Positions 11,418 through 60,451 of a stretch of DNA of 64,000 nucleotides are shown here, piece by piece (position 1 is the first letter of the stretch; each line of letters begins with the position of its first letter). This DNA comes from Escherichia coli (lineage in GTDB: Bacteria; Pseudomonadota; Gammaproteobacteria; Enterobacterales; Enterobacteriaceae): NCBI RefSeq assembly GCF_024700885.2, contig NZ_CP117016.1; one strand, 5' to 3'. The notes below the pieces were generated by a model. It did no database searches. It was not told the origin of the DNA and saw nothing but the letters and a program-made list of their open reading frames with translations. Position numbers and translations under genes: made by a program.

Positions 11418-12132
11418 GTGATGGTGGTGGGGGAAGGATTACTCAGCGCTGCGCGCTTCACCCTTCGGGTCGTTGCCTGCGGCAACGCTTTCTCGCTGGC
11501 GCTCGAGTCGCACCTTGGTCGAAGCTTCTCATCCTTCCCCGCATGGGCAGAATATTTAATTGCGGATTCGTTTGAGAGTTCACGGACTTTTGAAAAGTGA
11601 TGGTGGTGGGGGAAGGATTACTCAGCGCTGCGCGCTTCGCCCTTCGGGTCGTTGCCTGCGGCAACGCTCTCTCGCTGGCGCTCGAGTCGAACCTTGGTCG
11701 AAGCTTCTCATCCTTCCCCGCATGGGCAGAATATTTAATCGCGGATTCGTTTGAGAGTTCACGGACTTTTGAAAGTGATGGTGGTGGGGGAAGGATTACT
11801 CAGCGCTGCGCGCTTCGCCCTTCGGGTCGTTGCCTGCGGCCACGCTCTCTCGTTGGCGCTCGAGTCGAACCTTGGTCGAAGCTTCTCATCCTTCCCCCGC
11901 TTGGGCAGAATATTTAATTACGGATTCGTTTGAGAGTTCAGGGACTTTTGAAAGTGATGGTGGTGGGGGAAGGATTACTCAGCGCTGCGCGCTTCGCCCT
12001 TCGGGTCGTTGCCTGCGGCCACGCTCTCTCGCTGGCGCTCGAGTCGAACCTTGGTCGAAGCTTCTCATCCTTCCCCGCATGGGCAGAATATTTAATCGCG
12101 GATTCGTTTGAGAGTTCACGGACTTTTGAAAG
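11418..12132 (-). repeat. rtT: rtT tandem repeats downstream of tyrV (four ~178-179-bp units, each ending in the tRNA-Tyr 3' segment)
   Basis: Unit starts at 11418, 11597, 11775, 11954 (next unit is tyrV at 12133), plus a degenerate partial unit at ~11340-11417; an Arg-rich small ORF ([24 protein letters not shown], ~11458-11532, -) resembles the recalled protamine-like Tpr. Confidence 0.8.
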
Positions 12133-12135
12133 TGA

Positions 12136-12220
<85 letters not shown>

Positions 12221-12254
12221 AGGGGTAATTCAAATTTTGAGGTAATGCTTGAGA

Positions 12255-12339
<85 letters not shown>

Positions 12340-36181: not shown

Positions 36182-36375
36182 GCACTCTCCTTGAGTTTTA
36201 TGCAGGTGTTAATTAGCGGGCAATTGTACCCTGGTTAAGCCTCGGGTGGCAGCATCAGGTCTTGTATGGAAAAGCATATCTTTGTAAAGCGGAGGTAATT
36301 GCTGGCCTTCAGGCGTGGGCAAACCGCTGCAAGTGGCGAGCGAGTTAATATTTGCGTAGCGAAAATATGTAAAAA

Positions 36376-36537: not shown

Positions 36538-37176
36538 ATGAAAAAGTTAACAGTGGCGGCTTTGGCAGTAACAACTCTTCTCTCTGGCAGTGCCTTTGCG
36601 CATGAAGCAGGCGAATTTTTTATGCGTGCAGGTTCTGCAACCGTACGTCCAACAGAAGGTGCTGGTGGTACGTTAGGAAGTCTGGGTGGATTCAGCGTGA
36701 CCAATAACACTCAACTGGGCCTGACGTTTACTTATATGGCGACCGACAACATTGGTGTGGAATTACTGGCAGCGACGCCGTTCCGCCATAAAATCGGCAC
36801 CAGGGCGACCGGCGATATTGCAACCGTTCATCATCTGCCGCCAACACTGATGGCGCAGTGGTATTTTGGTGATGCCAGCAGCAAATTCCGTCCTTATGTT
36901 GGGGCAGGCATCAACTACACCACCTTCTTTGATAATGGATTTAACGATCATGGCAAAGAGGCGGGGCTTTCCGATCTCAGTCTGAAAGATTCCTGGGGAG
37001 CTGCCGGGCAGGTGGGGGTTGATTATCTGATTAACCGTGACTGGTTGGTTAACATGTCAGTGTGGTACATGGATATCGATACCACGGCTAAGTACAAATC
37101 TGGTGTTACTACCGTAAAAGACTCGGTACGACTGGATCCGTGGGTGTTTATGTTCTCCGCAGGATATCGTTTTTAA
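36538..37176 (+). CDS. ompW: outer membrane protein W
   Basis: 212-aa ORF with signal peptide MKKLTVAALAVTTLLSGSAFA and beta-barrel ending in F. Confidence 0.95.
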   Translation: MKKLTVAALAVTTLLSGSAFAHEAGEFFMRAGSATVRPTEGAGGTLGSLGGFSVTNNTQLGLTFTYMATDNIGVELLAATPFRHKIGTRATGDIATVHHLPPTLMAQWYFGDASSKFRPYVGAGINYTTFFDNGFNDHGKEAGLSDLSLKDSWGAAGQVGVDYLINRDWLVNMSVWYMDIDTTAKYKSGVTTVKDSVRLDPWVFMFSAGYRF

Positions 37177-37180
37177 TTTT

Positions 37181-37239
37181 CTCTGCAAAACCTCTGCAAA
37201 ACCCCTCTGCAAAACTGGTCATCAAATGACCAGTTTTTT
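37181..37239. other. putative attL region: 3 x CTCTGCAAAAC tandem repeat plus ompW terminator hairpin overlapping the int stop codon
   Basis: Repeats at 37181-37191, 37192-37202, 37205-37215; hairpin ctggtcat/atgaccag (37215-37233) followed by TTTTTT; int stop codon lies inside the hairpin. Confidence 0.5.
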
Positions 37240-38352
37240 CCATTCCTTACCGCGTGCATCGTTATAAATATCGGTCATTTTTTGATTCGAATGGCCTAGC
37301 AAAATTTTGGTATCAACCCCCTGCTCTCTGAACAATCGCTCTGATAAAGATCTCTGCTCATGGAAAGAGGGTGGGGTGCCATTAGCACGCCAGTTGTAAT
37401 CCACAGAATCCCGGGCTTTTTTAAATGCAACGGTTAATGTTGCTGGCTTAACCATCCCGCCGCGCTTAGCTGTCCCTTTCGCGTGATGGTGGTGCAATAG
37501 CCACGGACTAAGAACGCAATCGCGGCAGGATGACACTACATCATCCAGGGTGAGATTTAATTTATCGCAACGCAGAGCCAGAGGGATGGCAATCCGGGTT
37601 CCTGTTTTTTGCTGTTCGACATGAAGATAACCATCCCGGATATCCGAAAATTGCATTTTGCAAATATCTGAAAGGCGCTGGCCTGTCATCAGTGCCAGCA
37701 GCATACCGCGCTGTAAAAAGTAACCATCCTTTTCCGCTGCGTTATAAATCATCATCCACTCATCAAAAGTCAGTCGCTGTCTTGATATCCGCACCTGCGG
37801 TTTTTTTGCCGATTCTGCAGGGTTAAAGCCTGGCGGGACATCGCCCGTTTGCTGAGCTTCCCGGAAAACATCGATCAGTACTTTCCTGAAAATTTGTCCC
37901 ATTCTGTTATGTCCTCTGGCCTTGTACTCTTCCAGTACTGATACCACATCTTTTACGGTTATGGCATCTAACGGTCTGGTGCCAAAACGTTCATCAAATA
38001 CCCTGAGAGGGGCCGCTTTCTGTTTCAGCGTGTTGAGTTTGATCTCGCCGTTTTCATATCTTTCCTGTTGAATTTTTCTGTAATTATTCAGAAAAATGGT
38101 AACGGTTGATGAACCGCCGGTATCACTAATAATTTTCTCCTGCAGACTGAGCATTTGTTCCATTTGCTGCCGGGCAAGACGGCTGTTCGCTTCTGCTGCA
38201 ATAGTTTCTGCCAGTTTCTGGTCAATACTGCCGAGACCGTGATTTTTGCCTGTTATGGGATGCCTGTAACGCCAGTAAACTTTGTTATTTCTTTTGTCAA
38301 AATACGGAGATAATCCCGGAACATCGGTTTTATATTTTCGCGGGCGCGCCAT
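37222..38352 (-). CDS. int: tyrosine-type site-specific integrase
   Basis: 376-aa ORF; the C-terminal HxxR...Y catalytic region typical of phage integrases is inferred, not aligned. Confidence 0.9.
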   Translation of the reverse strand: MARPRKYKTDVPGLSPYFDKRNNKVYWRYRHPITGKNHGLGSIDQKLAETIAAEANSRLARQQMEQMLSLQEKIISDTGGSSTVTIFLNNYRKIQQERYENGEIKLNTLKQKAAPLRVFDERFGTRPLDAITVKDVVSVLEEYKARGHNRMGQIFRKVLIDVFREAQQTGDVPPGFNPAESAKKPQVRISRQRLTFDEWMMIYNAAEKDGYFLQRGMLLALMTGQRLSDICKMQFSDIRDGYLHVEQQKTGTRIAIPLALRCDKLNLTLDDVVSSCRDCVLSPWLLHHHHAKGTAKRGGMVKPATLTVAFKKARDSVDYNWRANGTPPSFHEQRSLSERLFREQGVDTKILLGHSNQKMTDIYNDARGKEWKKLVI

Positions 38353-38578
38353 CTTCCAGTATCCTCTTCAAAGCAGGGTGATCTGTGGCGATCACCTCCG
38401 GCTTGTTTACCATTCCGACAAAGCGAGCTTGCGGATCCACTCGCCAGCGTCTTCCAACTTTTTTGGGGAGAGGAAATATCATTCCGGCTTTAGCGTATTT
38501 ACTTAACGTACTCGGAGTAGGGACCGGTTCACTGAATTCCTCTTTTGCCCACTCAGTGAGCAGAATAAGTCTTGCCAT
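38330..38578 (-). CDS. xis: excisionase
   Basis: 82-aa ORF overlapping the int start; winged-helix Xis-like sequence (MIFPLPKKVGRRWRV). Confidence 0.8.
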   Translation of the reverse strand: MARLILLTEWAKEEFSEPVPTPSTLSKYAKAGMIFPLPKKVGRRWRVDPQARFVGMVNKPEVIATDHPALKRILEDGAPAKI

Positions 38579-42389: not shown

Positions 42390-43253
42390 GATGGCAGCCT
42401 CCGCGATGAATTTGATTAACTCACCACCGAGGTTTTCCACGACCATAAGGGTGGTGAGACGTACAGGGGTGGAAATACCGGTCATCACGGAACCCGGCCA
42501 GCCTTGCGGCTGCCCTGCACGCCCCACCATAATGCGAATGTGGCTGTGCTTAACGCATAAAAAAACCGCCTGAGCGCGGTTATGCGCCGTGAATGATTTC
42601 GGGTTTCCACGCCCGGCACCCGTTTTATGAGGTGCAGGTGCACTATAATTCCACCCGTTCTGGTTTTCAATAGCTACATTCAACATTTTCTCTACCTTTC
42701 ATCACCGAAGTGAACTTTGTTGATGCGGTGCCTGGTGCCTCCAGGTGATGTTAACCAGTTAACAATTAACGCCGGATACAGAGAATCCACCCATAACACT
42801 GTTTTTGGTTTTAACTGTTCCGCGTGCGCTGAGCCGCATTCACCGCATCACAAAATTCACTTTAAAAAGGGCGGCAGAGCAGTCACGGAGTAAAACTGAT
42901 ACCGCCAAAAGTCACCAGAAAATTGATAACAGAGGGCGTTGCAGCGGAGTTGTCACTTAAGCGTATGGTCAACCTGACAACCCGGTGTCCTCAACGGGGG
43001 AAGGAATAACCCCGCCATACTTACCGCCGCGCCATTTCGCGGAGTGCCACAACCGGAAGCGCACGGTCGAACTAAATTTAACGACACCGTACAGAGAGAC
43101 CAATTTCGCCGTGCGCTTTCGCGTTATGCCCTGACTTTTCAGGGACATATCCTTTCAGTAAACTGTCAGTGCCGGATGTTCACCCGTGTCCGGCGCACGC
43201 ACTCCACCTGACCCGTGGAGAACTCCTTAATTACCAACCCTCAGGAGGGTGAA

Positions 43254-45755: not shown

Positions 45756-46718
45756 ATGAGCAGCAAGCTTCATGGTCTTGTCTGGGAAGGGTGCGCCTTC
45801 ACCGGCATGATCTTATCCAGGGTGGCGGTTATGGCCCGTCTTGCAGACTACAGCAATGACGAGGGCGTGTCATGGCCTGCCATTGAAACTATCCGGCGTC
45901 AGATCGGTGCAAGAAGTGAATCCACAGTGAAATCGGCTATTGCAGAACTGGCGAAAGAGGGCTGGCTGACGAAGGAAGAGCGTAAGGTCGGTGGGCGTAA
46001 TGTAAGCAATATCTATCGGCTTAATGTGGAAAAACTCGAAGCAGCTGCGGCGGCGGCGCGTGAGTCATATAAACCGAAAAGAAAAATTAGCCCGGCAAAA
46101 AATGACCCGTTAACAGTTGACCCGTCAAATATTGACCCCTCAACGGTTGACCCGTCAAATTTTGATGGATCAACTGTTGATAAAAAACTGCCGATTAGGG
46201 GGCCGATGATTGACCCCGATCCGTCAGTATTAAAACCTGATCCGTCAGATAAAAGATCTTCTTGTCCGGACGCTTCGCAACCGGACCCGCAGACGGCTGA
46301 ACAGGATTTTTTAACCCGACACCCTGACGCGGTTGTGTTCAGTGCGAAAAAACGCCAGTGGGGAAGTCAGGAAGATTTGGTGTGCGCACAGTGGATCTGG
46401 GGACGAATCGTGAGTCTTTACGAGCAGGCGGCCAGCTATGATGGCGAGATCACTAGACCGAAAGAACCCAACTGGACAGCATGGGCCAATGACGTTCGCA
46501 CAATGCGGATGCTGGATGGCAGAACTCACAGACAAATTTGTGAAATGTTTGGGCGTCTCCAGCGGGATTCGTTCTGGGTAAAAAACATCATGAGTCCGGC
46601 AAAACTCCGGGAAAAATGGGATGAACTGGTTATCCGCCTGGGGCGTTCGCCTGCGCAGCGTTGCGTGAATCACATTTCTGAACCGGACACTGAAATACCG
46701 CCGGGATTCAGGGGGTGA
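45756..46718 (+). CDS. replication initiator (phage O-like, N-terminal HTH)
   Basis: ORF 45741..46718; ATG at 45756; N-terminal HTH; contains internal iterons (next feature). Confidence 0.7.
   Translation: MSSKLHGLVWEGCAFTGMILSRVAVMARLADYSNDEGVSWPAIETIRRQIGARSESTVKSAIAELAKEGWLTKEERKVGGRNVSNIYRLNVEKLEAAAAAARESYKPKRKISPAKNDPLTVDPSNIDPSTVDPSNFDGSTVDKKLPIRGPMIDPDPSVLKPDPSDKRSSCPDASQPDPQTAEQDFLTRHPDAVVFSAKKRQWGSQEDLVCAQWIWGRIVSLYEQAASYDGEITRPKEPNWTAWANDVRTMRMLDGRTHRQICEMFGRLQRDSFWVKNIMSPAKLREKWDELVIRLGRSPAQRCVNHISEPDTEIPPGFRG
46100..46180 (+). repeat. candidate origin iterons inside the O-like gene
   Basis: Four ~18-bp direct repeats (ccgttaacagttgac / ccgtcaaatattgac / ccctcaacggttgac / ccgtcaaattttgat) followed by an A/T-rich stretch; encode the peptide repeat DPLTVDPSNIDPSTVDPSNFD. 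Confidence 0.65.
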
Positions 46719-50528: not shown

Positions 50529-50739
50529 TTTCATATTGGCGAGGTGACGGGAGTTAAGTAGAATGGCTGCGGGTGCTTGAGGCTATCTGTCTCAGGCATG
50601 AACACCAAAGGCAGATAGAGAAAAGCCCCAGTTAACATTACGCGTCCTGCAAGACGCTTAACATTAATCTGAGGCCATATCTATGCTCTACACACGTAGG
50701 TTAGCCTCTTACGTGCCGAAAGGCAAGGAGAAGCAGGCT

Positions 50740-50895
50740 ATGAAGCAGCAAAAGGCGATGCTAATCGCCCTGATCGTCATCTGTTTAACCGTCATGGTGA
50801 CGGCACTGGTAACGAGGAAAGACCTCTGCGAGGTACGAATCCGAACCGGCCAGACGGAGGTCGCTGTCTTCACAGCTTACGAACCTGAGGAGTAA
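50740..50895 (+). CDS. hok: Hok/Gef-family type I toxin
   Basis: MKQQKAMLIALIVICLTVMVTALVTRKDLCEVRIRTGQTEVAVFTAYEPEE (51 aa) with AAGGAG Shine-Dalgarno; the in-frame upstream extension from 50683 may be a mok-like leader frame. Confidence 0.85.
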   Translation: MKQQKAMLIALIVICLTVMVTALVTRKDLCEVRIRTGQTEVAVFTAYEPEE

Positions 50896-55273: not shown

Positions 55274-55349
55274 GGCCCTTTAGCTCAGTGGTGAGAGCGA
55301 GCGACTCATAATCGCCAGGTCGCTGGTTCAAATCCAGCAAGGGCCACCA
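55274..55349 (+). tRNA. tRNA-Ile (anticodon CAU, ileZ-like) or tRNA-Met
   Basis: 76 nt; perfect 7-bp acceptor stem (GGCCCTT/AAGGGCC), D and T arms, anticodon loop CTCATAA, 3' CCA. Confidence 0.85.
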
Positions 55350-55449
55350 TCACAAACCGCCATTAGCTTATCAGGAAGAGCAGACGACACGATAACAGGG
55401 TTGTTGGTGCGGGGGCGGGTCCCCGATGGCGGTCCATTATCGGTATTCA

Positions 55450-55526
55450 GCGTTGTTAGCTCAGCCGGACAGAGCAATTGCCTTCTAAGCAATCGGTCAC
55501 TGGTTCGAATCCAGTACAGCGCGCCA
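55450..55526 (+). tRNA. tRNA-Arg (anticodon UCU, argN/argO-like)
   Basis: 77 nt; acceptor stem GCGTTGT/ACAGCGC, anticodon loop CTTCTAA, T loop TTCGAAT, 3' CCA. Confidence 0.85.
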
Positions 55527-55990: not shown

Positions 55991-56437
55991 ATACATATCT
56001 GGATTATCACCGGTTACGGTAAAAAGTGATTGCTTACTGTTTTTGTGAATGGCATTGCAGCAGCCGGATAATGTCAGTGCTGGCTGACGGTGTGCTGGTG
56101 GCGGGTGTGGTGGTTGCTGCTTTCCCGTTGCTGAAAAAGAAAACGCCAGACTGTTAGCCGGGTATCAGTTAGCGGGAGAAATTTTTAAATACTTCACAAT
56201 TCAGGCGGTTGACTGTTGTCTGGTTTGCGGGGAGTTTGTTAAAAGAAACTGGCATGGTGAATCCCCCTGTGCGGAGGGGCAATCAGCGAGTAGGTATATG
56301 GGATAATCGCGGATTCAGGTGCTGGTACTGAATTCACCGGGAGGCACCCGGCACCATGCAATGGCACATAGCGCCACTCTCCAGCCCCTCTCCGGAGGGG
56401 CTGTTTATATTGATTTTGTCAGATGTGAGTAAACTCC

Positions 56438-59256: not shown

Positions 59257-59302
59257 TTCAATGACTCAAAACTATGAACTGATTGTGGGTAATGACTCCA
59301 AC

Positions 59303-59806
59303 TTATTGATAGTGTTTTATGTTCAGATAATGCCCGATGACTTTGTCATGCAGCTCCACCGATTTTGAGAACGACAGCGACTTCCGTCCCAGCCGTGCCA
59401 GGTGCTGCCTCAGATTCAGGTTATGCCGCTCAATTCGCTGCGTATATCGCTTGCTGATTACGTGCAGCTTTCCCTTCAGGCGGGATTCATACAGCGGCCA
59501 GCCATCCGTCATCCATATCACCACGTCAAAGGGTGACAGCAGGCTCATAAGACGCCCCAGCGTCGCCATAGTGCGTTCACCGAATACGTGCGCAACAACC
59601 GTCTTCCGGAGCCTGTCATACGCGTAAAACAGCCAGCGCTGGCGCGATTTAGCCCCGACGTATCCCCACTGTTCGTCCATTTCCGCGCAGACGATGACGT
59701 CACTGCCCGGCTGTATGCGCGAGGTTACCGACTGCGGCCTGAGTTTTTTAAATGGCGGAAAATCGTGTTGAGGCCAACGCCCATAATGCGGGCGGTTGCC
59801 CGGCAT
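59303..59806 (-). CDS. insB: IS1 transposase InsB
   Basis: 167-aa [53 protein letters not shown]... Confidence 0.95.
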
Positions 59807-60000
59807 CCAACGCCATTCATGGCCATATCAATGATTTTCTGGTGCGTACCGGGTTGAGAAGCGGTGTAAGTGAACTGCAGTTGCCATGTTTTACGGCAGT
59901 GAGAGCAGAGATAGCGCTGATGTCCGGCGGTGCTTTTGCCGTTACGCACCACCCCGTCAGTAGCTGAACAGGAGGGACAGCTGATAGAAACAGAAGCCAC
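59725..60000 (-). CDS. insA: IS1 protein InsA
   Basis: 91-aa [46 protein letters not shown]... Confidence 0.95.
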
Positions 60001-60451
60001 TGGAGCACCTCAAAAACACCATCATACACTAAATCAGTAAGTTGGCAGCATCACCCTGATTGTGAAAGGGATCCGCAATTTTGAGAATAAAGTTACGGTA
60101 ACTTTAGCGTTACGGGACAAAAAACGCTTTGACGGTGAAATTTTTGACCTGGACATCTCGCTGGACCGTGTTGAAGGTGCCACGCTGGAGTTTTATGAGG
60201 CAGCAGCCAGAAGGAGCATCAGACAGGTCTTCCTGGATGTTGCTGCCGGGTTATGTGAAGGGGATGAGCAGTCGCCGGAAAAGCGCCCCGTAATTTTAGA
60301 GGCGCAGAATGTATGGATAACCTACAAAGGAAAGCTACCGGGAATAATTACTGGTTCTCTGAAGACTCCTCCGGAATCACAACCTTAAGTCACTGACCGG
60401 AACAGATAAACCTGTCCGTGGGCAGAAACCGATAAATCCTGATAAATATCC

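What the first reader, a model, noticed from the sequence alone, without database searches (positions are those of the whole stretch)
37181..37239. Triple 11-bp tandem repeat and terminator hairpin at the ompW-prophage junction
CTCTGCAAAAC occurs three times in tandem between the ompW stop and a terminator hairpin whose stem contains the integrase stop codon. The phage therefore reconstitutes the ompW terminator, and the repeats or hairpin are candidates for the att core. Whether the repeats are host- or phage-derived cannot be decided from this window alone.
Basis: seen in the sequence. Interest (0 to 1): 0.3.

Follow-up and report, generated by a model that had tools for sequence, protein, structure and literature searches.

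The report
Prophage integrase arm-binding sites beside ompW
The three short repeats next to ompW belong to the prophage and are most likely the docking sites for one end of its integrase, as in phages lambda and 21, while the actual crossover point lies about 100 bases upstream inside ompW; this is ordinary lambdoid-phage anatomy.

Summary
CTCTGCAAAAC occurs three times (37181-91, 37192-202, 37205-15; a CC spacer precedes copy 3). A strong hairpin plus T-run follows, with the integrase stop codon at its stem/loop boundary.

The att-core idea is wrong. Comparing attL (window), an empty K-12 site and attR of a strain identical to the window puts the shared core at 37058-37085, inside the ompW coding sequence. 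Everything to its right is phage DNA: a substitute ompW 3' end of 30 codons, the repeats and the hairpin. This matches the published 121-bp att of "PPompW" prophages (37058-37178).

The repeats are best read as the P'1-P'3 arm-type binding sites of a heterobivalent integrase:
- The Int has the lambda Arm-DNA-binding domain and is 50% identical to phage 21 Int.
- Phage 21 has three annotated sites (YYTTCCCCAAAA) in the same position.
- A fourth copy lies about 130 bp left of the core in the P arm, as in phage 21.
- Seven other lineages with different target genes carry such triplets; six share the 11/13-bp spacing and phage 21 has 12/13.
- Motif type tracks the Int N-terminal domain.

The hairpin replaces, rather than reconstitutes, the native ompW terminator. 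This is a new member of a known kind, of low interest. A side observation is that the phage-borne segment rewrites OmpW's last surface loop.

The parts
36538..37176 (+). ompW coding sequence, chimeric in the lysogen: host DNA up to the crossover within 37058-37085 and phage-borne DNA from 37086 at the latest
   Evidence: ORF list; alignment with the empty K-12 site and with attR; annotated as ompW in the identical strain MLI114
37058..37085 (.). Common core: the only block identical in attL, attB and attR, so strand exchange happened here. It contains inverted hexamers GTGGTA (37062-37067) and TACCAC (37080-37085) around a 12-bp spacer; reading these as core-type Int sites is inference.
   Evidence: Three-way alignment. 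attP-type junctions in IMG/VR contigs L101, L106 and L123; L101 narrows the identity to 37063-37085.
37058..37178 (.). 121-bp imperfect duplication (att sequence of PPompW prophages): the phage copy of the ompW 3' end
   Evidence: repeat_region annotation in LC567822.1, mapped onto the window; PMC8112680
37086..37176 (+). Phage-borne substitute for the last 30 codons of ompW. It keeps the final beta-strand (VRLDPWVFMFSAGYRF) but changes the preceding loop from NYKLGGAQQHDS to KYKSGVTTVKDS.
37181..37191 (+). Repeat 1 (CTCTGCAAAAC): proposed arm-type Int site P'1
   Evidence: homologous position to the annotated phage 21 P' sites
37192..37202 (+). Repeat 2 (CTCTGCAAAAC): proposed arm-type Int site P'2
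37205..37215 (+). Repeat 3 (CTCTGCAAAAC): proposed arm-type Int site P'3. Its last 5 nt overlap the hairpin stem.
37211..37239 (.). Hairpin (12-bp stem, CAA loop) flanked by an A-run and a T-run: a terminator-like element for ompW on the + strand and for int on the - strand. The 3' arm and T-run encode the Int C-terminus KKLVI.
   Evidence: Fold z = -5.2 (+ strand) and -3.6 (- strand). Compensatory change C>T / G>A in strain DG341 and a loop-only change in L082.
37222..38352 (-). Integrase: lambda-type heterobivalent tyrosine recombinase with an N-terminal arm-binding domain
   Evidence: Pfam PF09003 E = 7e-22 and PF00589 E = 1e-16; 50.5% identical to phage 21 Int and 36% to lambda Int
38330..38578 (-). 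Excisionase (Xis)
   Evidence: Pfam PF07825 E = 1e-7; annotated as excisionase in MLI114 and PPompW records

Best explanation
The window holds attL of a lambdoid "PPompW"-type prophage that integrated inside the 3' end of ompW. Strand exchange took place in the 28-bp core at 37058-37085. All DNA to the right of it is phage DNA, the P' arm of attP.

That arm carries, in order:
1. A substitute ompW 3' end that keeps the gene intact.
2. Three copies of TCTGCAAAAC spaced 11 and 13 bp apart, about one helical turn. I interpret these as arm-type sites P'1-P'3, bound by the N-terminal arm-binding domain of the phage integrase.
3. A hairpin with flanking A- and T-runs that terminates ompW transcription in one direction and probably int transcription in the other.

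The C-terminal domains of the same Int protomers bind the core. IHF bending lets Int bridge arm and core; a conserved IHF consensus lies in the P arm. A fourth arm site (TTCTGCAAAAC) lies about 130 bp left of the core in the P arm, which sits at attR outside this window.

Shown here: the position of the core, the phage origin of the repeats, the Int domain content, the homology of the layout to phage 21, and the family-wide conservation. Inferred: actual Int binding to the repeats, the core-type sites, and terminator activity.
For: 1. Core mapping. The alignment of attL, attB and attR and the empty-site alignment place the shared block at 37058-37085. attL carries the non-host version of 37086-37135 and attR the host version, so the crossover lies left of 37086. 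The window is 100% identical to strain MLI114 across the prophage apart from one IS1, so MLI114's attR is a valid proxy.
2. Agreement with published data. The 121-bp duplication annotated in PPompW records equals 37058-37178. PPompW has an Int of identical amino-acid sequence, and it excises and circularises on mitomycin C (PMC8112680).
3. Int domains. Int has the lambda Arm-DNA-binding domain (PF09003, E = 7e-22).
4. Phage 21. The closest characterised Int is that of phage 21 (50.5% identity). Its GenBank record annotates, directly after the int stop, "attP ... 3 subsites P1P2P3; consensus YYTTCCCCAAAA", then a terminator and the icd 3' pseudogene. The sequences are near-superimposable: phage 21 has TCTTCCCCAAAAC TTTCCCCAAAAC CC TTCCCCAAAAC TGG, and the window has TT CTCTGCAAAAC CTCTGCAAAAC CC CTCTGCAAAAC TGG.
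5. Fourth copy. In the reconstructed attP the motif hits at -130 (1 mismatch), +123, +134 and +147. Phage 21 hits at -128, +232, +244 and +257. The window holds only one other hit with up to 1 mismatch in 128 kb of strand, which gives an expectation of about 0.002 for a 300-nt arm.
6. P-arm boundary. A diverged P arm (O145 type) keeps CTGCAAAAC at the same place, and similarity between the two P-arm types begins at that site. An IHF consensus lies at -101..-89 in both types and at -99..-87 in phage 21.
7. Other lineages. Seven other lineages with 44-54% identical Ints and other target genes have a triple repeat ending in CAAAA(C) between the int stop and the target gene. The 11/13 spacing is found in 7 of the 8 lineages including this one; phage 21 has 12/13.
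8. Motif tracks the N-domain. The PPompW N-domain is 59-65% identical to those of the three other CTGCAAAAC phages, against 51% for the rest of the protein. Phage 21 versus L170, both CCCCAAAA type, gives 79% against 62%.
9. Conservation. Within PPompW relatives, TCTGCAAAA is invariant in every copy while the adjacent ompW loop region varies strongly.
10. Hairpin. Fold z = -5.2. A compensatory double change occurs in DG341, where a synonymous change in int is matched by a change in the non-coding arm.
Against: - No binding or mutational data exist for these repeats; the assignment rests on homology and comparative anatomy.
- Only one P-arm copy was found, whereas lambda has two.
- No IHF consensus lies between the core and the repeats.
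- One relative (L153, 57% Int identity) has AT-rich cargo and no repeats within 700 bp of int.
- One natural variant (MFDS1006657) has only two copies, so three may not be strictly required, or that prophage may be crippled.
- The consensus terminator scan did not list the hairpin. This is probably because the maximally extended stem uses up four of the six T's.
- The primary paper on phage 21 arm sites (Wang et al. 1997, J Bacteriol 179:5705) could not be retrieved. It is cited from memory only.
Confidence: 0.85

Rival explanations
1. The repeats or the hairpin are the att core, the site of strand exchange.
For: They lie at the visible boundary between an intact-looking ompW and the integrase gene. 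Homology to empty sites ends at 37178, only 3 bp before the repeats.
Against: attR contains neither the repeats nor the hairpin next to the host ompW remnant. The block common to attL, attB and attR is 37058-37085. attL carries the phage version and attR the host version of 37086-37135, so the crossover was upstream of 37086. The experimentally defined att is the 121 bp ending at 37178. attP-type junctions in IMG/VR contigs join the P arm directly to 37058.
Confidence: 0.01
2. The triple repeat is a functionless slippage product, a small minisatellite in phage non-coding DNA.
For: Copy number varies: one genome has two copies. Short tandem repeats can arise by replication slippage.
Against: Triplets are conserved in eight phage lineages with 44-54% identical integrases and different target genes; seven of the eight share the 11/13-bp spacing and phage 21 has 12/13. 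A non-adjacent fourth copy lies at a conserved distance on the other side of the core. Motif type co-varies with the Int N-domain. TCTGCAAAA is invariant amid variable flanks.
Confidence: 0.04
3. The repeats act at the RNA level, either as part of the ompW 3' UTR in lysogens (for example Hfq, sRNA or stability elements) or as a sib-like retro-regulatory element of the int mRNA.
For: In this phage, unlike phage 21 and most relatives, no terminator lies between the ompW stop and the repeats, so they are transcribed with ompW. On the minus strand the repeats can form a second small hairpin.
Against: In phage 21, Kp4865-4, L161, L166 and L167 the homologous repeats lie beyond the target gene's terminator, so they are not part of that mRNA. 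No Rfam family matches the region. A sib-type switch needs the element to be separated from int by integration, but these repeats stay linked to int in the prophage. An RNA role would not explain the P-arm copy.
Confidence: 0.05
4. The repeats bind a different protein, such as Xis, Fis, IHF or a host regulator, rather than the Int N-domain.
For: attP regions carry several accessory-protein sites. Binding was not tested.
Against: The repeats do not match the IHF consensus. In lambda the Xis and Fis sites lie in the P arm, not next to int (established knowledge). The motif co-varies with the Int N-terminal domain. The homologous phage 21 repeats are annotated as attP subsites.
Confidence: 0.05

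Closest known systems
Phage 21 attP (P' arm dodecamers YYTTCCCCAAAA x3; integration into icd)
   Same: The Int is a homologue (50.5% identity). Three direct repeats lie immediately 3' of the int stop, with a CC spacer before copy 3, followed by CTGG. A single P-arm copy lies about 130 bp left of the core, with an IHF consensus about 100 bp left. Integration is inside the 3' end of a protein-coding gene, with a phage-borne substitute 3' end and a phage-borne terminator.
   Different: The target gene is ompW, not icd. The motif is CTCTGCAAAAC, not TTCCCCAAAAC (3 of 11 positions differ). The substitute 3' end is 121 bp, against about 165-209 bp. Here the terminator lies after the repeats and overlaps the int stop, whereas in phage 21 it lies between the gene and the repeats. 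Here the substitute changes 7 amino acids, whereas the phage 21 icd copy is annotated as 99% identical in protein.
Phage lambda attP arm-type sites P'1, P'2, P'3 (and P1, P2)
   Same: A heterobivalent Int with the PF09003 arm-binding domain. Three direct repeats of about 10-11 bp, about one helical turn apart, lie in the arm next to the int gene's 3' end. Further copy or copies lie in the other arm, and IHF sites are present (established knowledge: Landy 1989 review).
   Different: Int is only 36% identical. The arm motif is unrelated (lambda consensus C/AAGTCACTAT). The repeats are +123 to +157 from the start of the core rather than about +50 to +85, because a gene fragment is intercalated. 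Only one P-arm copy was detected. Lambda attB is intergenic.
PPompW prophages of STEC O145:H28 and O157:H7 (Nakamura et al. 2021, PMC8112680)
   Same: The int-xis-att region is the same element family (99.7% DNA identity, Int 100% identical in amino acids). It has the same 121-bp att and the same ompW target.
   Different: That work defines the att duplication and prophage-in-prophage integration. The term "arm-type" does not occur in the paper. The window's prophage has a different P arm and cargo from the O145 type.
e14 element / icd and other integrative elements that restore the 3' end of their target gene
   Same: Integration within a coding sequence, with an element-borne replacement of the displaced 3' end and a pseudogene remnant left at the far junction (PMC6379469; the ompW remnant is annotated at attR).
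   Different: The target differs. Here the replacement is non-conservative in one surface loop.

Membership tests
Arm-type sites of a lambda-type (heterobivalent) tyrosine integrase attP | The adjacent integrase has an N-terminal arm-DNA-binding domain in addition to its catalytic domain | tested here: met
   PF09003 Arm-DNA-bind_1 at residues 2-71, E = 7e-22; PF00589 at residues 193-367
Arm-type sites of a lambda-type (heterobivalent) tyrosine integrase attP | Several direct repeats of about 10-12 bp in the arm next to int, distinct in sequence from the core | tested here: met
   Three exact 11-mers at 37181-37215. The core at 37058-37085 has no similarity to them.
Arm-type sites of a lambda-type (heterobivalent) tyrosine integrase attP | Copies of the same motif in the other arm, across the core | tested here: met
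   TTCTGCAAAAC at -130 in the MLI114 P arm and CTGCAAAAC at the same place in the O145-type P arm. Only one copy was found.
Arm-type sites of a lambda-type (heterobivalent) tyrosine integrase attP | IHF (bending-protein) sites between arm sites and core | tested here: inconclusive
   The consensus WATCAANNNNTTR occurs at -101..-89 in the P arm (perfect in the O145 type, 1 mismatch in the MLI114 type). No match lies between the core and the P' repeats.
Arm-type sites of a lambda-type (heterobivalent) tyrosine integrase attP | Direct binding by the Int N-domain, and a requirement for the sites in recombination | not testable with these tools
   Needs EMSA or footprinting and attP mutagenesis
Phage 21-type integration module | Int is a homologue of phage 21 Int | tested here: met
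   50.5% identity over 98% of the length; alignment A5
Phage 21-type integration module | A triplet of pyrimidine-rich repeats ending in CAAAA(C), with spacing of about 11-13 bp, directly 3' of int | tested here: met
   also present in six further relatives
Phage 21-type integration module | Crossover inside a protein-coding gene, with a phage-borne substitute 3' end that keeps the ORF intact | tested here: met
   ompW remains 212 codons long. The remnant at attR is annotated as an OmpW pseudogene.
Phage 21-type integration module | Target is icd and the arm consensus is YYTTCCCCAAAA (phage 21 specificity itself) | tested here: not met
   The target is ompW and the motif is CTCTGCAAAAC. This is a relative with a different specificity, not phage 21.
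att core (site of strand exchange) | Sequence present in attL, attR, attB and attP | tested here: not met
   The repeats and hairpin are absent from attB and attR. The shared block is 37058-37085.
Intrinsic (rho-independent) terminator | A stable stem-loop followed by a U-run on the transcribed strand | tested here: met
   A 12-bp stem (8 bp without the A:U extension) followed by T6; z = -5.2. The consensus scan did not list it.
Intrinsic (rho-independent) terminator | Pairing maintained by compensatory change | tested here: met
   DG341 has CTGGTTAT/ATAACCAG against CTGGTCAT/ATGACCAG here. L082 changes only a loop base. This rests on a single compensatory event.
Intrinsic (rho-independent) terminator | Transcripts end there in vivo | not testable with these tools
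   Needs 3'-end mapping in a lysogen

The most novel reading that the evidence does not exclude
The phage-borne piece between the core and the repeats (37086-37176) may be more than a neutral patch that keeps ompW intact. It may be a variable cassette that rewrites the last extracellular loop (L4) of OmpW in every lysogen. The three prophage-free strains checked share NYKLGGAQQHDS. PPompW-family prophages supply at least four different versions, including one that is 5 residues longer, while the flanking strands, the arm sites and the hairpin stay conserved. About 30% of complete E. coli genomes carry the int-proximal segment. OmpW is a receptor for T-even-type phage RB68 (bioRxiv 10.64898/2026.04.02.716166), for the TraN-alpha conjugation adhesin of R100-1 (PMC10833342) and for colicin S4 (my own knowledge). 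This could therefore be lysogenic conversion of a surface receptor, giving superinfection, colicin or conjugation exclusion. A secondary point: in this phage the three arm sites are transcribed as the ompW 3' UTR.
Probability: 0.2. Interest if true: 0.55.

Novelty: new member of a known kind. Interest (0 to 1): 0.2.

Why it matters
It settles the anatomy of a very common E. coli prophage junction, present in about 30% of complete genomes. The crossover lies inside ompW, the repeats are the integrase's probable arm sites, and the terminator is phage-supplied. This helps annotators place attL and attR correctly, 96-120 bp away from where the visible gene boundary suggests. It also gives the arm-site motif and spacing for a whole clade of phage-21-like integrases, which is useful for anyone building integration vectors on these recombinases. 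Mechanistically it adds nothing new to the lambda/phage 21 paradigm. The only lead with wider interest is the phage-imposed change of an OmpW surface loop.

Tried and rejected
- I looked for attR inside the window using direct repeats over 36500-64000. None was found, because the prophage runs past the window's end. I used strain MLI114 instead, after showing 100% identity apart from an IS1.
- I tried to retrieve the primary phage 21/e14 attP paper by PubMed id and by a guessed PMC id and by three text searches. It is not held. I relied on the phage 21 GenBank annotation and on memory.
- Most IMG/VR contigs are trimmed exactly at the int stop, so only a handful gave downstream sequence.
- L153 has cargo DNA and no repeats within 700 bp of int.
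- I found no second P-arm site and no IHF site in the P' arm.
- Rfam gave nothing at the finding.
- The consensus terminator scan did not flag the hairpin.
- I decided against the expensive genome-contig scan, because eight independent lineages already showed the pattern.
- I considered a sib-like retro-regulator and rejected it, because the hairpin and repeats stay linked to int after integration.

Full report
**1. What is in the sequence**

ompW occupies 36538-37176 on the + strand. A 376-aa ORF on the - strand (37222..38352) is followed by an 82-aa ORF (38330..38578).

Between the two stop codons lie three exact copies of CTCTGCAAAAC, at 37181-91, 37192-202 and 37205-15. Start-to-start spacing is 11 and 13 bp, because a CC dinucleotide precedes copy 3. 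Tandem Repeats Finder calls the array. The window contains no other exact copy, and only one further hit with one mismatch.

A hairpin follows: AAAACTGGTCAT / CAA / ATGACCAGTTTT at 37211-37237, with a T-run to 37239. As RNA it folds far better than shuffled controls on both strands (z = -5.2 and -3.6). The int stop codon is the complement of 37222-37224, at the stem/loop boundary. The 3' arm and T-run encode the Int C-terminus KKLVI.

**2. Where the attachment core really is**

Prophage-free E. coli genomes match the window only up to 37178. The alignment with K-12 is a mosaic:
- Essentially identical up to 37085.
- About 50% identical from 37086 to 37135.
- Nearly identical again from 37136 to 37178.
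- Unrelated after that.

The window is 100% identical to strain MLI114 through the prophage, apart from a 768-bp IS1 insertion. I therefore used MLI114 to find the far end. There, an annotated 126-bp "OmpW family" pseudogene fragment lies next to yciE.

The three-way alignment (sequence) shows phage DNA joined to CAGTGTGGTACATGGATATCGATACCAC, followed by the host-type ompW 3' end. That 28-mer, window 37058-37085, is the only block shared by attL, attB and attR. attL carries the non-host version of the divergent stretch and attR the host version, so the exchange happened left of 37086.

IMG/VR contigs that hold attP-type junctions (L101, L106, L123) join a P arm directly to this block. One of them narrows the identity to 37063-37085.

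The block contains inverted hexamers GTGGTA and TACCAC 12 bp apart. These would suit core-type sites around a central overlap, but that is my inference.

**3. Agreement with published work**

The int-xis-att region is 99.7% identical to the "PPompW" prophages of STEC. Their records annotate a 121-bp "duplication due to insertion", which maps to window 37058-37178. Nakamura et al. (PMC8112680) sequenced attP from circles excised after mitomycin C and define the att as these 121 bp, 81% identical to ompW.

The repeats begin 3 bp beyond this att. The term "arm-type" does not occur in that paper.

**4. Host or phage?**

The 84-bp segment holding the repeats and hairpin occurs in 1648 of 5426 complete E. 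coli genomes. In all 40 rows sampled evenly down the ranking it lies over an integrase gene. The empty sites inspected lack it. The repeats are phage DNA.

**5. What the repeats are**

The integrase has the lambda Arm-DNA-binding domain (PF09003, E = 7e-22) as well as the catalytic domain. The small ORF is an excisionase.

The closest characterised relative is phage 21 Int (50.5% identity); lambda and HK022 are at 36-37%. In the annotated phage 21 genome the int stop is followed by [quoted passage not shown], then a terminator, then a 165-bp icd 3' pseudogene. Read in the sense of the target gene, the two phages compare as follows:

| Phage | Sequence |
|---|---|
| Phage 21 | TCTTCCCCAAAAC TTTCCCCAAAAC CC TTCCCCAAAAC TGG |
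| Window | TT CTCTGCAAAAC CTCTGCAAAAC CC CTCTGCAAAAC TGG |

The layout is the same and 8 of 11 motif positions agree.

In the attP reconstructed from the MLI114 P arm plus the window, the motif occurs at -130 (TTCTGCAAAAC), +123, +134 and +147 relative to the first core base. In phage 21 it occurs at -128, +232, +244 and +257. From the background rate in the window, the expectation for such a hit in a 300-nt arm is about 0.002.

A second, diverged PPompW P arm (O145 type) keeps CTGCAAAAC at the same place. Similarity between the two P-arm types starts at that site, as expected for the outer limit of a functional attP. An IHF consensus lies about 100 bp left of the core in both types and in phage 21.

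**6. Family-wide pattern**

Seven other lineages carry a triplet of repeats ending in CAAAA(C) between int and the target gene. Their Ints are 44-54% identical to this one and their target genes differ.

| Lineage | Repeat motif | Spacing (bp) |
|---|---|---|
| PPompW (window) | CTCTGCAAAAC | 11/13 |
| Phage 21 | TTCCCCAAAAC | 12/13 |
| vB_EcoS-813R8 (next to potC) | TYTCYCCAAAA | 11/13 (read by eye) |
| Klebsiella phage Kp4865-4 | TTATCAAAAC | 11/13 |
| IMG/VR L161 | YYCTGCAAAAC | 11/13 |
| IMG/VR L166 | YYCTGCAAAAC | 11/13 |
| IMG/VR L167 | YYCTGCAAAAC | 11/13 |
| IMG/VR L170 | CCCCAAAA type | 11/13 |

Spacings are unless noted.

Motif type follows the Int N-terminal domain:
- The PPompW N-domain (residues 1-70) is 59-65% identical to those of the three other CTGCAAAAC phages, while the rest of the protein is 51% identical.
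- Phage 21 and L170, both CCCCAAAA type, are 79% identical in the N-domain against 62% elsewhere.

Among PPompW relatives, TCTGCAAAA is invariant in every copy.

Together this makes arm-type (P'1-P'3) sites by far the best reading. From memory, Wang et al. 1997 (J Bacteriol 179:5705) reported that phage 21 attP is unusually long because it must include the icd homology, and that its outer limits include the repeated dodecamers proposed as arm sites. I could not retrieve that paper.

**7. The hairpin**

In phage 21 and most relatives a separate terminator lies between the target gene and the arm sites. Here none does, so the first terminator-like structure after ompW is the hairpin at 37211-37239. 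It also closes the int gene in the opposite direction.

It is unrelated to the native ompW/yciE hairpin, which stays at attR. The phage therefore replaces the terminator rather than reconstituting it.

In strain DG341 a synonymous GTC>GTT change in int is matched by a change in the non-coding arm that keeps the pair. L082 changes only a loop base, turning the stop from TGA to TAA. The consensus scan missed the hairpin, probably because the extended stem absorbs four of the six T's.

**8. Exceptions and limits**

- Only one P-arm copy was found.
- No IHF match lies in the P' arm.
- One relative has cargo genes instead of repeats next to int.
- One genome has two copies.
- Nothing here tests binding.

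**9. Side observation**

The phage-borne 30 codons keep the last beta-strand but change the preceding loop. By the topology of the 8-stranded barrel, in which loop 1 joins strands 1 and 2 (PMC10833342), this is extracellular loop 4.

| Source | Loop sequence |
|---|---|
| Three empty-site strains | NYKLGGAQQHDS |
| Window | KYKSGVTTVKDS |
| DG341 / L123 | SYKFNGTPVKDA |
| L082 | SYKLNGAPVKDS |
| Strain 10 | KYKSDGRKLAKGSYSDN |

OmpW is a receptor for phage RB68 and for TraN-alpha. Whether the change is selected is unknown.

**10. Verdict**

The repeats are the probable arm-type sites of a phage-21-like integrase in a published prophage family. This is a new member of a known kind, of low interest.

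Noticed in passing
window 37086-37176 (also L008, L082, L123, L174): The phage-borne ompW 3' end changes only the last extracellular loop of OmpW (host NYKLGGAQQHDS, window KYKSGVTTVKDS). At least four different phage-borne versions exist, one of them 5 residues longer. The three prophage-free strains inspected share one host version. This may be lysogenic conversion of a receptor for phage RB68, TraN-alpha and colicin S4.
   Followed up: partly
window 59288-60055: A 768-bp insertion relative to the otherwise identical prophage of strain MLI114, with a 9-bp overlap of the flanks. It encodes InsA and InsB, so it is an IS1 copy on the minus strand. It interrupts the ydfR-like gene next to the holin gene.
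   Followed up: partly
L173 (NZ_CP073589.1, strain MFDS1006657), equivalent to window 37181-37215: A natural variant with only two repeat copies (13-bp deletion). It could serve as a natural test of how many P' sites are needed.
   Followed up: no
L101, L106, L123 (IMG/VR contigs): attP-type junctions in which a P arm is joined to the core plus the phage-type ompW 3' end. They indicate tandem PPompW prophages or circular forms. L123 and L130 are two int copies on one 97.9-kb contig.
   Followed up: partly
L177 (NZ_CM142814.1, strain GPEC172): An ompW with yet another C-terminal loop (EVKYKSNGAVLPAGRYSDN) and its own terminator, lying directly next to trpA with no yciE/F/G and no integrase. This may be a scar of a prophage-associated deletion.
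   Followed up: no
window 46082-46156: Four to five 15-bp direct repeats (consensus about AANNNTTGACCCGTC). They look like replication-origin iterons of the prophage.
   Followed up: no
window 11422-12339; 42447-42920; 50571-50745; 55274-55523; 56223-56412: Rfam hits: four RtT repeats with two tRNAs (host); C4 antisense RNA, isrK and DicF; sok antitoxin next to hokD; two prophage tRNAs; STnc100.
   Followed up: no
window about 36210-36300 (L001 1172-1261): RefSeq annotates a partial YkgJ-family pseudogene between yciC and ompW in all strains inspected. Nakamura et al. trace another prophage-borne attB (attB-in-PP_2) to the ykgJ-ecpE region. Any connection was not examined.
   Followed up: no
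L153 (IMG/VR, Int 57% identical): The int gene is followed by at least 700 bp of AT-rich DNA with no arm-type triplet. The attP of this relative must lie further away or be organised differently.
   Followed up: partly
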